Notes: a model not told the origin generated them from the sequence alone. A DNA stretch of 64,000 nt from Clostridiales bacterium DTU032 (GCA_001512745.1 LFSM01000075.1:3727-67726); one strand, 5' to 3'; positions 6,187 to 21,123 are shown, counted from the first letter of the stretch. Numbers and translations: made by a program.

Positions 6187-8076
6187 TCAGATTTCCTCAC
6201 GATGATAATGCAAATAAACTGCTTCTGCCACTTCTTCCGGTAAGCCCTTAACGGCTTTAAGCTCTTCCAGACCTGCTTCAGACAAATTTTTGATGGAACC
6301 GAATTCCTTTAGCAAAAGCTTGCGGCGGGCCGGACCGACTCCGGGAATGCTTTCAATCTGGTACTGCATCCGGCGCTTCTTTTCCTGTTGATTGCGCAAA
6401 CGGTTGGCGAAACGGTGTGCTTCATCCTGCAAGGCTGTAAGCAGACGCAAAACCCCCAGACGTATGGCTCTTTCATCAGCATCTTCCTCGCCGGCAGGCT
6501 GAGATAGCTCAAGAGTATCGCCATTACTGAGAACCAGACCACGTGTCCGGTGCCTATTGTCTTTCACTATTCCCGCAACAGCAATACCGGCATCATCCAG
6601 CAAGTCTTTAACCGCATTCACATGTCCCAGACCGCCATCAACAAATATTATATCAGGTCTGCTGTCAACATTCTCATCCTGAAGATGACGCAGCCTGCGT
6701 TCTGTCAGCTCCCGCATGGCCCGGTAGTCATCAATACCGGCAAAGCTTTTTATGGTGAAATGCCGATATGACTTGTGTTCAGGCCTGCCATCACGAAAAA
6801 CTACCATGGCACCGGTTCTTTCCTCAGAACCGGAAGAAGAGATATCGTAAGCTTCAATCCGTTGAGGGTAACCTTGACAGCCGGTATATTCTGCTAAAGT
6901 CCTGAGTGTATACTCCAGATCCTTTGCAGATTTACCTCCCATCAGGGTATGTCGCATCAAGGACCAGGCAGCGTTCTTGCTTGCCAGATCAACAGTTGCT
7001 TTCTTTGCTCCTCTTTGTGGGACATGCAAGCTGACTTTAGTGCCACGCAGTTCAGAAAGATATTCAGCTACCAGCTCCTGATTACTGATTGCTGTGCTGA
7101 GCAAAATCAGAGGAGGAATGCTGTCACTCTGGTCATAAAGTGACCGCAGAAATACTTCCAGATAAATTCCGTCAGCTTCACCGGTATCCTCGGCAAAACG
7201 ATAGACGCGGCCAGTCACACGACCTTCGCGAACTTCCAGTTTCTGCAGAGAAATGTCACTGCCATTGCGTTCCATAGCCAGAGCATCATAGTCGCCGCCC
7301 TGCGGGTCTACTATGTGCTGTTTCTCTTCCAGCCGGCGCAAGGCCTTCCACTTTTCACGAATAACTGCAGCACGTTCGAAATCAAGCGCATCACTGGCAG
7401 CTTCCATTTCTGCTTTGAGACTTTTGGTCAGTTCACTGTAGCGGCCTTCGAGAAAGCGGATAACGTCAGTAAGCATGGCTCTATATTCTTCCTCTGACAG
7501 CTCGCCGGTACAGGGTCCCAAACATCTGCCGATATAATAATTGAGACAGGGACGTTTTTTCCCGATATCGCGAGGCAAGTCGCGCTTGCAGGTGCGCAGC
7601 GGATATATGCTTTGGAGCGCATCGAGGGCACGACTGATATCGCCGCTTAACCAGGGGCCAAAATACCGTGCACCTTCCTTGACATCATCTTCAACATGGA
7701 AAGATTTTTCAACTTTAGGAAAAGCTTCCTGCAGGCTGACGCGGATATAGGGATATTCCTTGTCATCTCGCAAGAGGATGTTATAACGTGGCTTATGCTC
7801 CTTAATCAGATTCGCTTCAAGAATCAGAGCCTCAAGTTCAGTAGAACAGACAATGATCTCAAAGTCAGCTATGCGTTTAATCATAGCCTGAACTTTAGCA
7901 TTGCCATCAGGTTTCGCGGTGAAATAGGAGCTGAGGCGACTGCGCAAGGAAAGTGCTTTTCCGACATAAATAACAGAACCCGTATTGTCTTTCATTAAAT
8001 AGACACCGGGTTCTTCAGGGACTAAATTCAGTCTGAATGCAAATGAAGGCTGCTGCTCTGAGCTGTGCTGCACCAC
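6187..8076 (-). CDS. uvrC: Excinuclease ABC subunit C
   Basis: It has a GIY-YIG N-terminus (PGVYLMKD...VIYVGKA), a UVR domain and a C-terminal (HhH)2 (IPGVGPARRKLLLKEFGS). It uses a GTG start after AGAGGAG. Confidence 0.92.
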   Translation of the reverse strand: MVQHSSEQQPSFAFRLNLVPEEPGVYLMKDNTGSVIYVGKALSLRSRLSSYFTAKPDGNAKVQAMIKRIADFEIIVCSTELEALILEANLIKEHKPRYNILLRDDKEYPYIRVSLQEAFPKVEKSFHVEDDVKEGARYFGPWLSGDISRALDALQSIYPLRTCKRDLPRDIGKKRPCLNYYIGRCLGPCTGELSEEEYRAMLTDVIRFLEGRYSELTKSLKAEMEAASDALDFERAAVIREKWKALRRLEEKQHIVDPQGGDYDALAMERNGSDISLQKLEVREGRVTGRVYRFAEDTGEADGIYLEVFLRSLYDQSDSIPPLILLSTAISNQELVAEYLSELRGTKVSLHVPQRGAKKATVDLASKNAAWSLMRHTLMGGKSAKDLEYTLRTLAEYTGCQGYPQRIEAYDISSSGSEERTGAMVVFRDGRPEHKSYRHFTIKSFAGIDDYRAMRELTERRLRHLQDENVDSRPDIIFVDGGLGHVNAVKDLLDDAGIAVAGIVKDNRHRTRGLVLSNGDTLELSQPAGEEDADERAIRLGVLRLLTALQDEAHRFANRLRNQQEKKRRMQYQIESIPGVGPARRKLLLKEFGSIKNLSEAGLEELKAVKGLPEEVAEAVYLHYHREEI

Positions 8077-8112
8077 TTGACTCCTCTATACATATGAATC
8101 GGCCGGTAATAA

Positions 8113-8139
8113 GAGGACTGCAGTAATGATGCAGTCCTC
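8113..8139 (-). terminator. Hairpin downstream of the HPr gene (10-bp stem GAGGACTGCA/TGCAGTCCTC, 7-nt loop)
   Basis: A perfect inverted repeat is visible in the sequence. On the minus-strand RNA it is followed by a moderately U-rich tail (UUAUUACC). Confidence 0.45.
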
Positions 8140-8216
8140 AATAGTACGGAAAAATGTTCTTTTCAAAATTACTTGCTATGAATCAGGCAGAAACAAGATT
8201 CATATTCGCACGTCAT

Positions 8217-8483
8217 TTACAGCTCTTTATTGGTATCTGCCATGTAATCAACAATAAGTTCGACTGCTTCTTCTTCATCTTCACCTTCAGCAACGACCAT
8301 TAGGCGGTCACCACTATCAATGCCAAGCGACATCACCCCGAGTAAGCTTTTTGCGTTAGCACGACGATCATCTTTCTCGATGTAGATACTCGAATCAAAG
8401 TTCGAGGCTTTTTGTATCAACAATGCGATAGATTTCATGTGCGTATCTTCGTCGCACGCAAAACAGACTTCCTTTGAAATCAT
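8217..8483 (-). CDS. ptsH: HPr-family phosphocarrier protein (variant active-site loop)
   Basis: The 88-aa product aligns by eye to B. subtilis HPr. His15 (DTHMKS) and Ser46 (NAKSLLGVMSLG) are retained. Confidence 0.75.
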   Translation of the reverse strand: MISKEVCFACDEDTHMKSIALLIQKASNFDSSIYIEKDDRRANAKSLLGVMSLGIDSGDRLMVVAEGEDEEEAVELIVDYMADTNKEL

Positions 8484-8557
8484 AAATTTTCCTCCGTCAG
8501 CCTCATGCGCTGAAACTCAACATTTTCTTTCTGGCAACAGATTACTAACCTCACATA

Positions 8558-8587
8558 AGTATAGTCAGCAAGTGGAATAGCTGTCAA
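8558..8587 (-). promoter_or_regulatory. Sigma-A-type promoter for the HPr gene (TTGACA-18-TATACT)
   Basis: On the minus strand, TTGACA lies at 8587-8582 and TATACT at 8563-8558. Confidence 0.5.
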
Positions 8588-14603: not shown

Positions 14604-15410
14604 TCACTCGGAAAAGGTCCTTTGGTAATCGTCAAGTATTACTTGGAAGGCTTGGTCTGTTTCCGCTCCCTCTATTAGTTTTTCTTCCAGCCACTTCAGA
14701 CGGCTGTTACGGTCATTGGCCCTTGTTATTGCCGGAGCAATAAGAAAATAGATCAAAAAAAACAAAAGTGCGGCAATAATGATAACAGCGCTGATTATCT
14801 GTACCGTCTTGTTGCGGGAACCATAAGGCGAAGAAGCTACCGAACCTTTGTTGCTTTGGCTGATTTGTCGCATAAGATCATCACGCTCTTTGGCACTAGC
14901 CATACGCACTTCATCGCCGTTAGGGGAAGCTGCCGCCCGCTCCAGAATACCAGCTTGTGCCAAACTCGCTCTTACCGGCAGAAGTTTTTTCTCATTCCTG
15001 CGACGTGAACGTTCCTCTTCTTCGGCCCTGTCTTTGCAAAAACAGGCCTGTGCCTGCAAATGTGTCAGAACTTCTACGTCTGCAGGATCAGGATCAGCCA
15101 GCAAGGCTTTCTTAAACTGGAGTTCTGCCTCTTTATATTTGCGATCAGCTCCAAGACATAAACCATAGAGCACAGCTGCATCCGTAAAGAGAGGATAAGT
15201 TGCAACAAGTTTTTCCAAAGCAATTCTGGCTATGTCCTCATTGTCGGAATGAATATGTTCTAAAGCACGATTATATATGGATAAAGCACGTTCAGCTTCT
15301 CTTTGTGATGTGAATACTCCCGTCGGAGCTTCTTCGATTTTCTCTATCTTTGACAGTACAGCCTGCCATTTAAAATTGGAATTCAGCTTTTTTTCCTGTG
15401 GCTGTGCCAT
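14604..15410 (-). CDS. Hypothetical single-pass membrane protein with an N-terminal TPR-like helical region
   Basis: It has GGAGGT SD, the TM helix IISAVIIIAALLFFLIYFLIAP and helical-repeat-like sequence (ALEKLVATYPLFTDAAVLYGLCL...KEAELQFKKAL). I recognised no family. Confidence 0.6.
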   Translation of the reverse strand: MAQPQEKKLNSNFKWQAVLSKIEKIEEAPTGVFTSQREAERALSIYNRALEHIHSDNEDIARIALEKLVATYPLFTDAAVLYGLCLGADRKYKEAELQFKKALLADPDPADVEVLTHLQAQACFCKDRAEEEERSRRRNEKKLLPVRASLAQAGILERAAASPNGDEVRMASAKERDDLMRQISQSNKGSVASSPYGSRNKTVQIISAVIIIAALLFFLIYFLIAPAITRANDRNSRLKWLEEKLIEGAETDQAFQVILDDYQRTFSE

Positions 15411-16880: not shown

Positions 16881-17360
16881 TTATTCATCGTCTTCACCGC
16901 CTCTTGTCTCTGCATCCTTGCTCCAAGATTCAGTAAAAACAAAATACTTGCCCAGAAGATAATTGCCGACAATCACAAACAAAAGAGAGATCGCTTTTGC
17001 CCAGGGCAGATTGGAAATTATCTCAGTTTTAAATCCTATCACGTCATAAATCAAATAAAAACCTGCGTATTGAAAAACCAGCGAAACCACTAAACGTCCG
17101 GCAGAAAATCGAAATATTTCGCTCAATACGGGCTGTTTGGATTTGAAGACCCAGACACGATTGATTACATATGCAGTTAATATTGATAAAACAATGGACG
17201 GCAGCAGTGAAAAATACCACTTGTCAAGACCAAGCAAATTACTCAGCAAATAAAAAACACCCATATCTACCAGAGTGACTATCACGCCTGAGATGGTATA
17301 ACGCAGGAACTGCATATTAAAAAAGAGCTCTCGCAAGCGAGCCCAGATTTTTTTGACCAC
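16881..17360 (-). CDS. GtrA-family membrane protein
   Basis: The ~159-aa product has 4 TM helices. FLRYTISGVIVTLVDMGVFYLL and YVINRVWVFK are GtrA-like. It uses a GTG start 5 nt after the upstream stop. Confidence 0.75.
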   Translation of the reverse strand: MVKKIWARLRELFFNMQFLRYTISGVIVTLVDMGVFYLLSNLLGLDKWYFSLLPSIVLSILTAYVINRVWVFKSKQPVLSEIFRFSAGRLVVSLVFQYAGFYLIYDVIGFKTEIISNLPWAKAISLLFVIVGNYLLGKYFVFTESWSKDAETRGGEDDE

Positions 17361-17365
17361 TAAAA

Positions 17366-19099
17366 CTAAATCTCCTCCTGATCTTCCAGATCAGATCTTT
17401 CTGAATAAGTACTGAAAATCCCTTTGCCTTTATTTTTTGTCTGATATTCTGTGTTGAAGCTCTGTCCTGCTGTGGCGCTGATATCAGAAACATCTCTGAC
17501 CTCAGGCAAGTCATCCAGATAATTGTAGGAGACCGGCGGGGTGGTCTCAACATCTAAGTCATCACTTGCTTCAAAACTATCTTCTTCAGACCTATACATA
17601 CTATCATCAGAAAGGAAGTCATCTGCAAAGGGATACTCCGCTCTTTTCCTGTCAGAATTCAATTTGACGATAATAATAATCAGGATAACCAATATAAGCA
17701 AAACACCGGCGCTGGCAGCTATAATATGCCAGAGTTTAAAGTCATTGCCAAAAAGACTGATAGTTCTGTTACGCAGACCTTGCCTTCCTTCATTCAGATC
17801 ACTGTCGGCAGTTTCTGCAGGCAAAGTGTCAGCTTCAGTCTGCTGTTCAGCTTCCTTGAGATCTTCTTTTGCCAGATCTTCGAAGTTTTCATCCAGAAAA
17901 GTACCAAAAGCTGGTACCAACAGGAAATCATAATGCATGAGCTGATCCAGACTCTGACTATAAACAAATCTTTCGATTTCCTTATTGCTGCCTTCCAGGG
18001 CCAGCAAGTAGGTTCCGGCATTCTCCCGGCCGGCTCCAATATTCATGGTCGAAAGATTGCTGCCAGCAGTACTGACAGTTTGTGCGGATGATGTACTCGC
18101 AGCTTCTGATTTTGACAGCTGTGCCTGATATTGCTCCATATATTCATCAAAAGAAACATAATCACCGAAATTAAATTCAATAACCGGAAGGTTGATATTC
18201 CTGATTTTTGCATCTGTGCGTGTAGTACCGTAGGGTATCAGTTCATCTGGCATAATGGTCACATGATAAAACTCTTCACCCAGTTTAAAACGCAAATACG
18301 GTATGAAGCTTTTGCTTGAGCTGTCATAGAAATATAATTGCGGCTCTTGACCGGGCAGACTCATAAACGACAAATACAAGTCTTCATTTTCAGAATAATA
18401 AGCTGCCAGTTCATAACCGTCGATCACATTCTCAGCTGCTTCAAAGCCACTGGGAATGTCTGCTTCTTCCAAATCAATTTCCGCTATGGAAAGTCTGCGG
18501 CCCTTATGGTCTACTCCTTTAAATGCTTTGGCCGGCTGGCTCTTTGTTTCCTCTGTTTCACTAGGGCCAGCCGTGGAGGGCGTAATTGTTTCCACAGTTG
18601 TCAGTGGTGTTTGGGGTGGTGCTGTGTTTGCTACAGTGTTTGTGGGAGTGACTGCAGGTGCATTTTGAATATTTACTGAAGCACTACCGCCACTAAATGT
18701 GTAATCGCCATTGTAAGTATGAGAACCTGACCCATCAGAGGCTGTGAAATCAGCATTTCCGCTTCCCTTTATTTTAAAAGAAAGTGTGGCTACATGACCT
18801 GCTGTAAAGGAGCTACCTAAGTTTCTAGCAATATAAATCGTTCCTGATTTATCGTTGATAGCTGCCCCAATACTTGATGTACCTGATACAAATTCAACTA
18901 TATTAGCTCTATAAGATATCGTGCAATCAAAAATCTCCATCTCAGTAGCAGGGCTGACACCGACATTAACAGTAATTATTTGTCCGGAAATAGATGCGGA
19001 TACAGTAACTGACCCATGTGCAGCAGTGGCCTTCTGTGGGAAGAAAAGAGTAGCAAAAAATATAAGAAGCAAAGAATATAATGCAAACTGCCTTTTCAT
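17366..19099 (-). CDS. Secreted, C-terminally membrane-anchored surface protein with an N-terminal cohesin-like beta-sandwich module
   Basis: The domain order is signal peptide (…FFPQKATA/AHG), a ~117-aa beta-rich module, a Pro/Thr linker, a ~250-aa unknown domain, a TM helix (LWHIIAASAGVLLILVILIIIIV + KLNSDRKR) and an acidic ~100-aa cytoplasmic tail. Confidence 0.7.
   Translation of the reverse strand: MKRQFALYSLLLIFFATLFFPQKATAAHGSVTVSASISGQIITVNVGVSPATEMEIFDCTISYRANIVEFVSGTSSIGAAINDKSGTIYIARNLGSSFTAGHVATLSFKIKGSGNADFTASDGSGSHTYNGDYTFSGGSASVNIQNAPAVTPTNTVANTAPPQTPLTTVETITPSTAGPSETEETKSQPAKAFKGVDHKGRRLSIAEIDLEEADIPSGFEAAENVIDGYELAAYYSENEDLYLSFMSLPGQEPQLYFYDSSSKSFIPYLRFKLGEEFYHVTIMPDELIPYGTTRTDAKIRNINLPVIEFNFGDYVSFDEYMEQYQAQLSKSEAASTSSAQTVSTAGSNLSTMNIGAGRENAGTYLLALEGSNKEIERFVYSQSLDQLMHYDFLLVPAFGTFLDENFEDLAKEDLKEAEQQTEADTLPAETADSDLNEGRQGLRNRTISLFGNDFKLWHIIAASAGVLLILVILIIIIVKLNSDRKRAEYPFADDFLSDDSMYRSEEDSFEASDDLDVETTPPVSYNYLDDLPEVRDVSDISATAGQSFNTEYQTKNKGKGIFSTYSERSDLEDQEEI
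18665..19015 (-). other. Cohesin-like module (tentative)
   Basis: The pattern ...ITVNVGVSP..EIFDCTISYRANIVEFVSGT...GTIYIARNLG...GHVATLSFKIKGSGNADF resembles the cohesin consensus (f.i.YD.n.l.fv...G.i.f......G.la.i.Fkvk). It is shorter than a canonical cohesin. Confidence 0.4.
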
Positions 19100-19122
19100 T
19101 TGAATACCTTTCTAAAGTCAAC

Positions 19123-21123
19123 TTATTGACTTTGGTCAACCAATTTAACACCTAATATATTTCGGTAAATTGCCATTGTGTCATGTGAGTTTACTTTGCC
19201 ATCTCCAGTTACATCCATCGCGAGCTTCTCTAGTGATGAAGGGTTTGTTATGCCAAGTATGTATCTGTAAACAGCCATAGTATCATGTGAATTTATCAGA
19301 CCATCACCGCTGGCATCGCCATATATCAGCAGATAATAATCTAAAGTGGATTCTTTCTCGTCCTTATAAAACAGTGATAGTTTCGCCCCGGTACCGACAA
19401 CACCAGAAGTTACAGTCTTGCCATCTACTGAGATTTGCAGTCTGTATCCCTCCGGCACTTGCAGCTTATCTGTTAAATACTCAACAGTATTTTTTCCCTG
19501 CTGAGGATCTGCATTACTCACATAGGGCGACTTTACCTTGAGTGTGCTGCTGCTCAGGCTTGCCTCAGGCTTGTCCGCAGAATCTCCTGGCTCTCCTGAC
19601 CTGGTAACGGTCAGATAATAATCTCTCACATCACCACGTTCTGATACAGCCTGTACTTTGATGGTGTTCTTGCCGTGCTCCAACTTGTATACACCGCGGC
19701 CATTTATACTGCAGGAAGAGAGGTAGGCGCTGGCATTTACGGTGAAGCTCTCTACACCTTCAGCAACCGTAACGGTATAACTGTTGACTTCAGGATTAAA
19801 GGCAGGCTTCAAAATCCCTGAAGATACCGTGATACTTTGCAGCCAATTGTTGCGACTGCGATTATCTGTAGGAAAGGAAACTTTTTCAGCAGGCATCTCT
19901 GCCAGCACAGGAATGATAAATTCGTGAGCTTTATTTAACTGGCCGAGTTTCTGATATGCATCATAGACATTCCCGCCCTCGACAGCAGGTGCAATAACAT
20001 TGCCCATATATTGATGCCACCAGGGTCCATAAGTATGATTATAATCTATGTTCCATTTTTGATAATATTGGGTATTTTGCCCGGCGTTAATGTATCCTTC
20101 GCTGATCCAGCGGGCCCCGCCTACTATCGCCAAATAAGGATTTGTCCAGGGTAAGAGATACAGGCTCTTTTCTGCAGATGTTAGACTGCCGTTTACGCCT
20201 GCTGACCCATATTTTGCGTATTGCAGACCATTAAGGATAGGTGTTGTACCTGAGTAGGCAGCAATATTGTAAAAGTTGTAAATGTTTTCATAGCCTGAAA
20301 CTGTACCACTAACAGAGGCTGAACCTTGGGGCCCGACTTCCTGAATTATTCTCTTGGCCAGAAATACGGGATTAGCATTACTCCATTCCGCCGCCTTAAC
20401 AAAAATATCAGGATATTTCATATTGGAGGACTTTCCGTACTGATCTACAATCGAAATGGTCGGACCGTCAGCCATAAATGTTCCGCTCAGGCTTTGAGCA
20501 ATTTCTGCACGGGTATGGATCTGAGGATTATAAGATAAATTTTCAAATTGAAAGATATCTCTTTCACTAAGGAAATTCCGCGGGTCTAGATAGTAGGCGA
20601 TAATTTCCGGGCTGGCATAGTAAAACCCGGCATCAGAAGCATACCAACTGTTTGTTTTGTAGTTATAGGCACCCTTGTCAAAAGATCGCTGGGCTATGGA
20701 ATATGAGTTTGGAACAGAGTTCTTCCGCTCCAGACTGCTTTCATATGCCATAACTGTACTCCAGGTCATAGCTGTACCATTAGCATTTACCGGATGGGAT
20801 GCTGTAAATTTCCAGTCAGGATATTTTTCATGCAGTATTCTTAAAGCGGGGCGATATGATTCGGGAAAAGCTTGCTCATCAAGATATGTTTCAAAATCAT
20901 CATTATAAGCAGCCGCCTCATTTTTGCCGGAAAGGGCATCTGCTAAAAAGAAGGCAGCAAAGGCCAAGAGCAATAGAATCAAGCAAAGCGGCAGGATATA
21001 AATGCGTGCAAAAAAAGGAAAGACCGGACGTTTCTGATCACGAAACTTCATCACACTATCAACTTTGTGATATTTCAAAGTCCGTCTCCTTCCCAATGCA
21101 ACTTTCACCCGATTCGCAAGCAA
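19123..21123 (-). CDS. Membrane-anchored GH73 (glucosaminidase-type) peptidoglycan hydrolase with a cadherin-like beta-sandwich domain and a C-terminal dockerin
   Basis: The N-terminal anchor is IYILPLCLILLLLAFAAFFL. The GH73-like core includes FLAKRIIQEVGPQGSASVSG...YNFYNIAAY...QYYQKWNI. WLQSITVSSGILKPAFNPEVNSYTVTV is cadherin-like. The start is uncertain: TTG 21123, TTG 21078 after GGAGA, or ATG 21051. Confidence 0.75.
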   Translation of the reverse strand: MLANRVKVALGRRRTLKYHKVDSVMKFRDQKRPVFPFFARIYILPLCLILLLLAFAAFFLADALSGKNEAAAYNDDFETYLDEQAFPESYRPALRILHEKYPDWKFTASHPVNANGTAMTWSTVMAYESSLERKNSVPNSYSIAQRSFDKGAYNYKTNSWYASDAGFYYASPEIIAYYLDPRNFLSERDIFQFENLSYNPQIHTRAEIAQSLSGTFMADGPTISIVDQYGKSSNMKYPDIFVKAAEWSNANPVFLAKRIIQEVGPQGSASVSGTVSGYENIYNFYNIAAYSGTTPILNGLQYAKYGSAGVNGSLTSAEKSLYLLPWTNPYLAIVGGARWISEGYINAGQNTQYYQKWNIDYNHTYGPWWHQYMGNVIAPAVEGGNVYDAYQKLGQLNKAHEFIIPVLAEMPAEKVSFPTDNRSRNNWLQSITVSSGILKPAFNPEVNSYTVTVAEGVESFTVNASAYLSSCSINGRGVYKLEHGKNTIKVQAVSERGDVRDYYLTVTRSGEPGDSADKPEASLSSSTLKVKSPYVSNADPQQGKNTVEYLTDKLQVPEGYRLQISVDGKTVTSGVVGTGAKLSLFYKDEKESTLDYYLLIYGDASGDGLINSHDTMAVYRYILGITNPSSLEKLAMDVTGDGKVNSHDTMAIYRNILGVKLVDQSQ
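19150..19320 (-). other. Type-I dockerin module (two Ca-binding repeats)
   Basis: GDASGDGLINSHDTMAVYRYILG ...12 aa... DVTGDGKVNSHDTMAIYRNILG. Both segments fit D-x-[NDS]-x-D-G-x-[IV]-N-x-x-D plus a helix, which is the canonical duplicated dockerin repeat. Confidence 0.8.

What the first reader, a model, noticed from the sequence alone, without database searches (positions are those of the whole stretch)
17366..21123. Adjacent cohesin-like anchor and dockerin-bearing GH73 muramidase: a non-cellulosomal cohesin-dockerin pair on the cell surface
The 666-aa protein ends in an unmistakable duplicated dockerin (GDASGDGLINSHDTMAVYRYILG / DVTGDGKVNSHDTMAIYRNILG). Its catalytic part looks like a GH73 N-acetylglucosaminidase, not a glycan-degrading cellulosomal enzyme. 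The next gene, 23 nt downstream, encodes a signal-peptide protein. Its first module resembles a cohesin beta-sandwich, followed by a PT linker, an unknown domain, a TM helix and an acidic cytoplasmic tail. Both partners are membrane-anchored and apparently co-transcribed. The arrangement suggests a dedicated 1:1 tether that positions or regulates a cell-wall hydrolase. The near-identical recognition helices of the two dockerin repeats would allow dual binding modes.
Basis: partly seen in the sequence, partly recalled or inferred. Interest (0 to 1): 0.65.

Follow-up and report, generated by a model that had tools for sequence, protein, structure and literature searches.

The report
Membrane cohesin anchor docking a wall hydrolase
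Two adjacent genes encode a peptidoglycan-cutting enzyme ending in a dockerin and a membrane protein starting with the matching cohesin; the pair is conserved across hundreds of Clostridia species, and its two binding modules are exchanged together as one DNA cassette.

Summary
Gene 1 (19123-21078, minus strand) encodes an N-terminal hydrophobic segment, a GH73-type peptidoglycan glucosaminidase, a cadherin-like domain, a beta domain and a type I dockerin. Gene 2 starts 23 nt downstream (17366-19099). It encodes a signal peptide, a cohesin, a Pro/Thr linker, a conserved unnamed ectodomain, one transmembrane helix and an acidic ~100-aa cytoplasmic tail.

The cohesin passes Pfam's threshold, and its model matches solved cohesins. 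The enzyme model matches SagB, Atl and AtlE, although Pfam's glucosaminidase model gives no hit.

The pair is not a local oddity. At least 587 species genomes encode the hydrolase. In 79 of 82 loci the next ORF carries the cohesin; in the other three a different ORF of the locus does.

The modules co-vary. Two strains with 100% identical flanking DNA differ only in a ~760-bp block holding the dockerin, intergenic spacer, signal peptide and cohesin. A second such swap occurs in Lachnospira.

Best reading: a dedicated 1:1 tether that holds an autolysin on its own cell. Binding itself is untested. Whether the hydrolase is membrane-anchored is unresolved.

The pairing was mentioned once in the literature, for Ruminococcus bicirculans; I found no functional study.

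The parts
19123..21078 (-). Hydrolase gene, 651 aa from TTG 21078. The longest ORF runs to 21123 (666 aa), and residue numbers in this report use the 666-aa numbering.
   Evidence: ORF. AAGGAG lies 8 nt upstream of TTG 21078. Relatives are called at 650-651 aa.
20932..21006 (-). N-terminal hydrophobic segment (residues 40-64). It is either a signal peptide or a signal anchor; this is unresolved.
   Evidence: Hydropathy scan. It is followed by ADA/LS and AAA/YN motifs. It is modelled as a helix, 37-64.
19849..20901 (-). GH73-type peptidoglycan N-acetylglucosaminidase domain (about residues 75-425). Contains the invariant Glu262 (IIQEVG) and HQYM at 370-373.
19600..19839 (-). Cadherin-like beta-sandwich domain (residues 429-508).
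   Evidence: Pfam PF12733, E=1e-8.
19330..19551 (-). Further beta-rich domain (about residues 525-598) with no family assignment.
   Evidence: Confident strands in the model. Only sub-threshold Pfam hits.
19153..19323 (-). Type I dockerin (residues 601-657) with two Ca-loop plus helix repeats. Recognition positions 10/11/17/18 read S-H-Y-R in both repeats.
   Evidence: Pfam E=9.7e-13. PDB dockerins. Foldseek 4uyp_B TM 0.81. Loops and symmetry.
19100..19122 (-). 23-nt intergenic spacer carrying the anchor's ribosome-binding site (GAAAGG).
17366..19099 (-). Anchor gene, 577 aa.
   Evidence: 21 full-length homologues.
19019..19099 (-). Signal peptide of the anchor (residues 1-27, ...KATAA/HG).
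   Evidence: Read from the sequence. Helix 2-19 in the model.
18662..19018 (-). Cohesin module (residues 28-146).
   Evidence: Pfam 28.4 bits, above cutoff. pLDDT about 90. Foldseek top 14 hits are all cohesins. Family profile against PDB cohesins, E=8e-12.
18524..18661 (-). Pro/Thr-rich linker (residues 147-192).
   Evidence: Sequence. Disordered in the model.
17870..18523 (-). Conserved ectodomain of unknown fold (about residues 193-410). It is the most conserved part of the anchor.
   Evidence: Alignment A1. A family HMM finds it in 71 of 76 complete downstream proteins; its only other hits are the three cohesin-bearing ORFs of L020 and L025. No Pfam or PDB sequence match. Model confidence is low.
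17666..17734 (-). Single transmembrane helix (residues 456-478), followed by KLNSDRKR.
   Evidence: Hydropathy. Helix 456-486 in the model.
17369..17665 (-). Acidic cytoplasmic tail (residues 479-577), with conserved RKRAEYPFADDF and PEVRD motifs and an invariant C-terminal ED(Q/E)EEI.
   Evidence: Alignment A1. Tail statistics.
18550..19335 (-). Approximate window equivalent of the exchangeable cassette: dockerin, spacer, signal peptide and cohesin. Boundaries are approximate.
   Evidence: Mapped from the L001/L003 breakpoints, 7796-8563 in locus coordinates.

Best explanation
This is a two-gene module for holding a peptidoglycan hydrolase on the cell that makes it.

Gene 1 is exported and carries a GH73-type N-acetylglucosaminidase domain, two beta domains and a C-terminal type I dockerin. 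Gene 2 is a type I membrane protein. Its N-terminal cohesin sits at the far end of an extracellular stalk made of a Pro/Thr linker and a conserved ectodomain. One transmembrane helix and an acidic cytoplasmic tail follow.

The proposed mechanism is that the dockerin binds the cohesin with calcium, one to one. The enzyme is then kept at a set distance from the membrane of its own cell, where it remodels the wall (daughter-cell separation or turnover) instead of diffusing away.

The two binding modules lie next to each other in the DNA, at the 3' end of gene 1 and the 5' end of gene 2. They are inherited and exchanged as one matched cassette.

Shown here: module identities, conserved adjacency, co-variation and cassette exchange. 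Inferred: binding, calcium dependence, topology, co-transcription and the physiological role.
For: Module identities:
- Dockerin: Pfam E=9.7e-13, and fold match to 4uyp_B with TM 0.81.
- Cohesin: above Pfam's cutoff; all top 14 Foldseek hits are cohesins; the profile of 75 downstream proteins hits solved cohesins at E=8e-12.
- GH73: sequence hits to SagB, Atl and AtlE; these are the top eight fold hits; Glu262 is invariant in 95 relatives.

Conserved pairing:
- Synteny holds down to 41% anchor identity.
- Hydrolase relatives at 34-42% identity in different neighbourhoods still have a cohesin gene next.
- At least 587 species genomes encode the hydrolase.
- A family HMM finds the cohesin in 79 of 82 downstream ORFs. 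In the other three loci it finds it in another ORF of the same locus. There are no hits beyond those.
- All 71 complete anchors have exactly one C-terminal TM helix. Their tails have a median length of 98 aa and a median net charge of -19.
- The middle ectodomain is present in 71 of 76.

Co-variation:
- Partial Mantel r(dockerin, cohesin | GH73)=0.38, with 0 of 2000 permutations reaching it. Among close relatives r=0.85.
- L001 and L003 are 100% identical in DNA on both sides but 42-64% identical across dockerin to cohesin.
- At protein level the rest of the hydrolase is 100% identical, the dockerin 60%, the cohesin 32% and the rest of the anchor 95%.
- Each allele was assembled independently at least twice.
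- A second swap is seen in Lachnospira.

Exclusivity:
- The window has only one cohesin and one dockerin.
- Among 1.84 billion representative proteins, the only dockerins more than 50% identical sit in P0041 (the L005 hydrolase) and two short fragments, one of them 94% identical.
Against:
- Pfam's own GH73 model does not hit.
- The rest of the genome is unseen, so other dockerins or cohesins may exist.
- A few relatives have no cohesin ORF found downstream (L067, L080, L086, and the short loci L087 and L089).
- The role in the cell's own wall is inferred only from what GH73 enzymes do in other Firmicutes.
- The stalk geometry could equally present the enzyme outward.
Confidence: 0.7

Rival explanations
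1. The anchor is not only a passive tether. It is a transmembrane regulator: its conserved ectodomain and acidic cytoplasmic tail couple the docked hydrolase to a cytoplasmic partner such as the division or elongation machinery. Activity or position would then be controlled from inside the cell. This would resemble FtsEX-type control of hydrolases or the SagB-SpdC complex.
For: - The ectodomain and tail are better conserved than the cohesin. They carry invariant short motifs, including the C-terminal ED(Q/E)EEI.
- Across the wider family the tail is usually long and strongly acidic, and it often ends in an acidic-hydrophobic motif such as EDLEFIDL or EVLDLNDL.
- The ectodomain is present in 71 of 76 anchors.
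- The closest solved relatives of the enzyme include SagB, which works in complex with a membrane protein (6u0o).
Against: - Several family members have tails of only 6-23 residues (L008, L024, L026, L030 and others), so a long tail is not essential to the module.
- No partner is identified.
- The ectodomain model is of low confidence.
- The neighbouring genes differ between lineages.
Confidence: 0.2
2. The enzyme is displayed outward on a long stalk to attack the walls of other bacteria or to harvest peptidoglycan fragments. On this reading it serves competition or feeding rather than the cell's own wall growth.
For: - The cohesin sits at the distal end of about 420 extracellular residues that include a Pro/Thr linker.
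- Rapid exchange of the binding interface is the kind of pattern seen in conflict systems.
- Many relatives add SH3_3 wall-binding domains.
Against: - The module sits among housekeeping and envelope genes in stable synteny.
- It is present in hundreds of species of different lifestyles.
- No immunity gene or toxin-like partner is seen nearby.
- By published knowledge, the nearest solved relatives (SagB, Atl, AtlE) are housekeeping autolysins.
Confidence: 0.12
3. The anchor is a general cell-surface scaffoldin that takes several dockerin-bearing proteins encoded elsewhere in the genome. The hydrolase would be only one client that happens to be encoded next door.
For: - Dockerins are often promiscuous within a species, by published knowledge of cellulosomes and of the R. 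bromii amylosome (PMC4611034).
- Only 64 kb of this genome is visible.
Against: - There is one cohesin per anchor, one dockerin in the window, and no other in 64 kb.
- The matched cassette exchange would break every other client at once.
- No non-hydrolase protein with a dockerin more than 50% identical was found in 1.84 billion representatives.
- R. bicirculans is reported to have just one of each.
Confidence: 0.1

Closest known systems
Single cohesin plus single dockerin 'associated with a GH73 enzyme' in Ruminococcus bicirculans (Wegmann et al. 2014, as cited in Ze et al. 2015, PMC4611034)
   Same: It is a non-cellulolytic member of the Clostridia with one dockerin and one cohesin tied to a GH73 enzyme. 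It is probably the same module.
   Different: I saw only a one-sentence mention and the primary paper was not held. I found no description of the anchor's architecture, of its distribution or of cassette exchange. Orthology with the window's genes was not checked, because I had no sequence.
ClcC-ClcD minimal pair of Cellulosilyticum lentocellum (Allan et al. 2026, PMC13487519)
   Same: Two adjacent, probably co-transcribed genes carry the genome's only cohesin and only dockerin. They were shown experimentally to form a heterodimer.
   Different: There the enzyme is a GH5 cellulase, and the cohesin protein is a free CBM3 scaffold that targets cellulose. Here the enzyme is a peptidoglycan hydrolase, and the cohesin protein is membrane-anchored with no carbohydrate-binding module.
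Non-cellulosomal cohesins of Clostridium perfringens glycoside hydrolases (GH84C NagJ: 2w1n, 2jh2, 2o4e; GH33: 2vo8)
   Same: They are among the best structural matches of the anchor's cohesin (ranks 1-4, 6 and 16) and strong profile matches. Their cohesin-dockerin use lies outside plant-fibre degradation.
   Different: By published knowledge, they link secreted host-glycan-degrading enzymes to one another. They have no membrane anchor, no wall hydrolase and no adjacent-gene pairing.
SagB-SpdC peptidoglycan release complex of Staphylococcus aureus (PDB 6u0o)
   Same: SagB is among the closest solved relatives of the enzyme. It is a GH73 glucosaminidase that works bound to a membrane protein.
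   Different: By published knowledge, the partner there is a polytopic CAAX-type membrane protein that contacts SagB through membrane helices. Here the contact would be an extracellular cohesin-dockerin pair on a single-pass protein. The resemblance is one of logic, not of family membership.
Cellulosomes and amylosomes (Acetivibrio thermocellus, R. flavefaciens, R. bromii)
   Same: They use the same two interaction modules, and in many dockerins the same symmetric two-repeat design.
   Different: They have many cohesins and many dockerins, plant-polysaccharide or starch enzymes, carbohydrate-binding modules, and anchoring by SLH domains or sortase. None of these features is present here.

Membership tests
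Type I dockerin (Pfam PF00404) | Profile match above the curated threshold | tested here: met
   48.6 bits against a cutoff of 22.9, E=9.7e-13, covering profile positions 1-57 of 57.
Type I dockerin (Pfam PF00404) | Two repeats, each a 12-residue Ca-binding loop (Asp/Asn/Ser/Thr at positions 1, 3, 5, 9, 12) followed by a helix | tested here: met
   DASGDGLINSHD at 603 and DVTGDGKVNSHD at 637. Helices 612-622 and 646-656 in the model. Foldseek 4uyp_B TM 0.81, rmsd 1.6.
Type I dockerin (Pfam PF00404) | Calcium-dependent binding to a cohesin | not testable with these tools
   Needs ITC or pull-down with and without EDTA.
Cohesin (Pfam PF00963) | Profile match above the curated threshold | tested here: met
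   28.4 bits against a cutoff of 24.1, E=2.2e-6. 39 of 75 downstream proteins in relatives match at E<=0.01. The family profile against solved cohesins reaches E=8e-12.
Cohesin (Pfam PF00963) | Cohesin fold (beta-sandwich) | tested here: met
   Residues 27-146 are all-beta with pLDDT about 90. The top 14 Foldseek PDB hits are all cohesins, most with TM 0.6-0.71 on the target.
Cohesin (Pfam PF00963) | Binds a cognate dockerin | tested here: inconclusive
   Only indirect evidence: conserved adjacency, co-variation and joint cassette exchange. There is no binding data.
Glycoside hydrolase family 73 (peptidoglycan N-acetylglucosaminidases) | Match to Pfam Glucosaminidase PF01832 | tested here: not met
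   No hit at E<=1. The family is a divergent branch that this model does not cover.
Glycoside hydrolase family 73 (peptidoglycan N-acetylglucosaminidases) | Sequence and fold homology to solved GH73 catalytic domains | tested here: met
   phmmer: SagB E=1.3e-7, Atl E=4.6e-7, AtlE E=2.2e-6. NCBIfam SagB E=2.5e-8, far below its full-length cutoff. Foldseek top eight are all these enzymes, E 6e-9 to 8e-7.
Glycoside hydrolase family 73 (peptidoglycan N-acetylglucosaminidases) | Conserved catalytic glutamate | tested here: met
   Glu262 (IIQEVG) aligns with the Glu of SagB's LLETG and is invariant in 95 relatives. That this is the catalytic residue rests on published GH73 work.
Glycoside hydrolase family 73 (peptidoglycan N-acetylglucosaminidases) | Cleaves GlcNAc-beta-1,4-MurNAc in peptidoglycan | not testable with these tools
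   Needs a zymogram and muropeptide analysis.
Cellulosome / amylosome | Scaffoldin with several cohesins, several dockerin-bearing polysaccharide-degrading enzymes, and a substrate-binding module | tested here: not met
   There is one cohesin, one dockerin and no CBM in the two proteins or in the 64-kb window. The enzyme is a wall hydrolase.
SagB-SpdC-type complex | Partner is a polytopic CAAX-protease-like membrane protein | tested here: not met
   The partner has a single TM helix and no CAAX-type Pfam hit.

The most novel reading that the evidence does not exclude
This may be a widespread, uncharacterised autolysin-control system of Clostridia. It is found in gut genera such as Lachnospira, Roseburia, Agathobacter, Coprococcus and Blautia.

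On this reading a single-pass cohesin protein links a docked GH73 hydrolase to the cell interior through its conserved ectodomain and acidic tail. The cohesin-dockerin interface is kept polymorphic within species and is exchanged as a matched cassette.

The polymorphism would act as a lock-and-key identity. It would stop a neighbour's autolysin from docking on one's own surface, or it would evade phages or inhibitors that use the exposed cohesin.
Probability: 0.25. Interest if true: 0.8.

Novelty: new variant of a known kind. Interest (0 to 1): 0.6.

Why it matters
How Gram-positive bacteria keep their own wall-cutting enzymes in the right place is known for a few model species. Those use choline-binding, LysM or SH3 wall-binding domains, FtsEX, or SagB-SpdC. 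It is largely unknown for the anaerobic Clostridia that dominate gut and digester communities.

This module would add a new solution: the cellulosome's protein plug and socket, reused to hang an autolysin on a membrane protein. It appears in at least 587 species genomes.

It also offers natural sets of orthogonal cohesin-dockerin pairs, such as type A and type B, sitting in otherwise identical proteins. These are useful for studying how binding specificity evolves and for protein-assembly engineering.

The sharp cassette boundaries make specificity directly testable by swapping about 760 bp.

Tried and rejected
- Complex prediction. No interface model exists.
- Word-index protein search with the 71-aa dockerin returned nothing. 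This is a limit of the index with short queries, not a biological result.
- The exhaustive dockerin search was dominated by multi-dockerin proteins at about 30-38% identity. It is only weak evidence for exclusivity.
- The anchor's middle domain got no Pfam, NCBIfam or PDB sequence match. Its model had low confidence with 16 sequences, so its fold stays unknown.
- C. lentocellum ClcC/ClcD looked at first like the same system. It is a GH5 cellulase with a CBM3 scaffold, so it is an analogue only.
- R. champanellensis ScaK was recalled as a possible lysozyme-linked cohesin. The literature held describes it as a GH25-fused scaffoldin within a full cellulosome, so it is not the same arrangement.
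- A phage or defence origin found no support. The neighbours are housekeeping genes in stable synteny. The phage and defence libraries were not searched.
- The primary R. bicirculans paper could not be read.
I therefore could not count cohesins and dockerins across a whole related genome.

Full report
**What is at the locus.** Two ORFs lie head to tail on the minus strand: 19123-21123 (666 aa as the longest ORF) and 17366-19099 (577 aa). They are 23 nt apart. The first most likely starts at TTG 21078, which has AAGGAG 8 nt upstream and gives 651 aa, the length called in relatives. A further 5 nt downstream comes a GtrA-family membrane protein. It is followed by a FolC-like Mur-ligase-family protein, a 268-aa protein with weak TPR hits, an asparagine synthase and an S11 D-Ala-D-Ala carboxypeptidase. 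Upstream lie a YfbR-like HD nucleotidase, another HD protein, a UvrD-type helicase and a ribosome hibernation factor. This is a housekeeping and envelope neighbourhood with no mobile-element signs.

**The hydrolase.**
- Pfam finds a complete type I dockerin at residues 601-657 (E=9.7e-13) and a cadherin-like domain at 429-508.
- Both Ca-binding loops are intact. The residues at the canonical recognition positions 10, 11, 17 and 18 are S-H-Y-R in both repeats.
- Pfam's GH73 model (PF01832) does not hit. Residues 233-399 are nevertheless homologous to the solved staphylococcal GH73 glucosaminidases SagB, Atl and AtlE (E about 1e-7) and to NCBIfam's SagB model.
- A model built on 95 relatives is confident (mean pLDDT 90.7). 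Its eight best PDB matches are exactly those enzymes, over about 300 columns.
- Glu262 aligns with the Glu of SagB's LLETG motif and is invariant in the 95 relatives, as is the HQYM motif.

The catalytic part is therefore a divergent GH73-type N-acetylglucosaminidase. 'Muramidase' in the finding's title is a slip.

**The hydrolase N-terminus.** It has a basic stretch and about 21 hydrophobic residues, followed by ADA/LS and AAA/YN. In most relatives the equivalent segment ends in a plain Ala-x-Ala site such as VQA/QT, VYA/YT or AKA/DD. I could not run a signal-peptide predictor. A cleaved signal peptide is at least as likely as a membrane anchor.

**The anchor.**
- The N-terminus is a typical signal peptide.
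- Residues 28-146 pass Pfam's cohesin threshold (28.4 against 24.1 bits). They are modelled with pLDDT about 90 as an all-beta module. The top 14 Foldseek PDB matches are all cohesins, led by the non-cellulosomal cohesins of Clostridium perfringens.
- A profile of 75 equivalent proteins from other species hits solved cohesins at E=8e-12.
- After the cohesin come a Pro/Thr linker, a conserved domain of about 220 residues with no known relatives, one hydrophobic helix followed by basic residues, and a 99-residue tail with 26 acidic and 10 basic residues.
- Within the close family, the ectodomain and several tail motifs, including the C-terminal ED(Q/E)EEI, are far better conserved than the cohesin.

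**Is the pairing more than chance?** The anchor has only 21 detectable full-length relatives, all in uncultured Clostridia.
- The closest named genome is Mageeibacillus sp. UBA5439 (83% identity), so the window probably comes from the Saccharofermentanales/Fastidiosipila group.
- More distant carriers include Lachnospira eligens, [Lactobacillus] rogosae, Pseudoflavonifractor, Herbinix, and MAGs of Roseburia, Agathobacter, Coprococcus and Blautia.
- In four distant relatives examined by gene calls, the next gene carried a cohesin even where the surrounding genes were entirely different.
- Across all fetched loci, an HMM seeded only with the window-type cohesin and iterated found the module in 79 of 82 downstream ORFs. 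In the remaining three loci it found it in another ORF of the same locus. It had no other hits among the ORFs of those loci.
- Pfam's own model recognises 39 of 75 of these downstream proteins.
- All 71 complete anchors have exactly one C-terminal transmembrane helix, and 71 of 76 share the middle ectodomain.

This is one coherent two-gene module.

**Do the two modules belong together?** Pairwise divergence of dockerins tracks that of the neighbouring cohesins after controlling for divergence of the catalytic domain. The partial Mantel r is 0.38, and none of 2000 permutations reaches it. Among close relatives r is 0.85.

The clearest case is L001 against L003, two contigs of one species.
- Their DNA is 100% identical for more than 2 kb.
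- Identity then falls to 42-64% from about position 7796 to 8563. This block holds the dockerin, the intergenic spacer, the signal peptide and the cohesin, up to the Pro/Thr linker.
- Identity then returns to 100%.
- At the protein level the rest of the hydrolase is 100% identical, the dockerin 60%, the cohesin 32% and the rest of the anchor 95%.
- The L003 cassette ('type B') is closest to that of L005, whose flanking domains are only about 50% identical.
- The dockerin differences fall on the recognition positions: S-H/Y-R against S-L/T-R and S-V/I-R.
- Each allele was assembled independently at least twice. Type A is L001 and L002; type B is L003, L004 and L011. An assembly artefact is therefore unlikely.
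- The protein alignment shows the same switch in a second sub-lineage: P0006 against P0009, P0010 and P0012.
- An independent cassette replacement appears in Lachnospira, L064 against L045 and L048.

The window carries type A. Because the two modules abut in the DNA, one recombination tract moves a matched pair. That is what one expects if they must fit each other.

**Exclusivity.** The 64-kb window has no other dockerin or cohesin, by motif scan and by family HMMs. In an exhaustive search of 1.84 billion representative proteins, the only dockerins more than 50% identical to this one sit in P0041 (the L005 hydrolase) and two short fragments, one of them 94% identical. This test is weak, and I could not census a whole related genome.

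**How it most likely works.**
- Shown: the module identities, the adjacency, the co-variation and the architecture.
- Inferred: the exported hydrolase docks through its dockerin on the cohesin, with calcium, one to one. It is thereby held on the producing cell at the end of a stalk of about 420 residues, and it acts on that cell's own peptidoglycan. By published knowledge, GH73 enzymes of other Firmicutes do this in cell separation and glycan trimming.
- Co-transcription is inferred from the 23-nt spacing and its own ribosome-binding site. The pattern scan gave no clear promoter.
- The symmetric dockerin repeats would allow binding in either orientation. Of 50 dockerins I could register, 29 are identical at all four recognition positions and 40 at three or more. 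This is inference.

**Open questions.** The conserved ectodomain and acidic tail may add regulation from inside the cell, but some relatives have tails of only 6-23 residues. The reason for the cassette polymorphism is also open. Avoiding cross-docking of neighbours' autolysins, or escaping something that targets the exposed cohesin, are speculations.

[quoted passage not shown] The primary paper was not available. Searches combining dockerin and cohesin with GH73, peptidoglycan hydrolase, autolysin or N-acetylglucosaminidase found no functional study.
- The nearest experimentally studied analogue of a 1:1 adjacent pair is ClcC-ClcD of Cellulosilyticum lentocellum. That pair joins a GH5 cellulase to a free CBM3 scaffold.
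- Transmembrane-anchored single cohesins have been predicted in ruminococci as parts of cellulosome-like systems (PMC13463774).
- SagB-SpdC is a functional analogue only.

**Verdict.** The finding is real, and its interpretation is largely right. The pairing is not new as a bare fact. I did not find its breadth, the anchor's conserved architecture or the matched-cassette exchange described anywhere.

Noticed in passing
window 17369-17665 (anchor tail); loci L006-L088: In the window's clade the anchor's cytoplasmic tail ends in an invariant ED(Q/E)EEI. In many Lachnospiraceae relatives it ends in acidic-hydrophobic motifs such as EDLEFIDL, EVLDLNDL, EIIDFNDL or NEFEIFDL. This looks like a short docking peptide for an unknown cytoplasmic partner.
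   Followed up: partly
window 17325-17344, minus strand: A terminator-like hairpin with a T-run sits 20 nt after the anchor's stop codon, inside the first 36 nt of the annotated GtrA ORF (16881-17360). GtrA may start at the internal ATG near 17315, or the hairpin may attenuate read-through.
   Followed up: no
window 14604-15410, minus strand: A 268-aa protein has weak TPR hits and a C-terminal hydrophobic helix. It keeps its place in the synteny of all close relatives but has no Pfam family. Its 3' end overlaps the start of the asparagine synthase ORF by 32 nt.
   Followed up: no
L063, L071, L078, L032: Contigs filed under Desulfovibrio piger, Muribaculaceae, Alistipes and Thermoflexaceae carry this Clostridia module. 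L063 is about 97% identical in the GH73 domain to Lachnospira eligens L058. These are probably mis-binned contigs in the public assemblies.
   Followed up: partly
L020 1484-2749 and 2788-4746; L084 2142-3176: Some loci depart from the simple pair. L020 has two consecutive cohesin-bearing genes after the hydrolase. In L084 the cohesin gene lies upstream.
   Followed up: no
L007 10003-11913: In one relative the GtrA-like protein and the FolC-like Mur-ligase-family protein are called as one 636-aa fusion. This hints at a functional link between these two neighbours of the pair.
   Followed up: no
L005 5686-7977; L006-L009 and most Lachnospiraceae loci: Most relatives of the hydrolase carry an N-terminal SH3_3 wall-binding domain that the window's protein lacks. 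Most anchors carry a cadherin-like domain between the cohesin and the ectodomain (57 of 75), where the window's anchor has only a Pro/Thr linker.
   Followed up: partly
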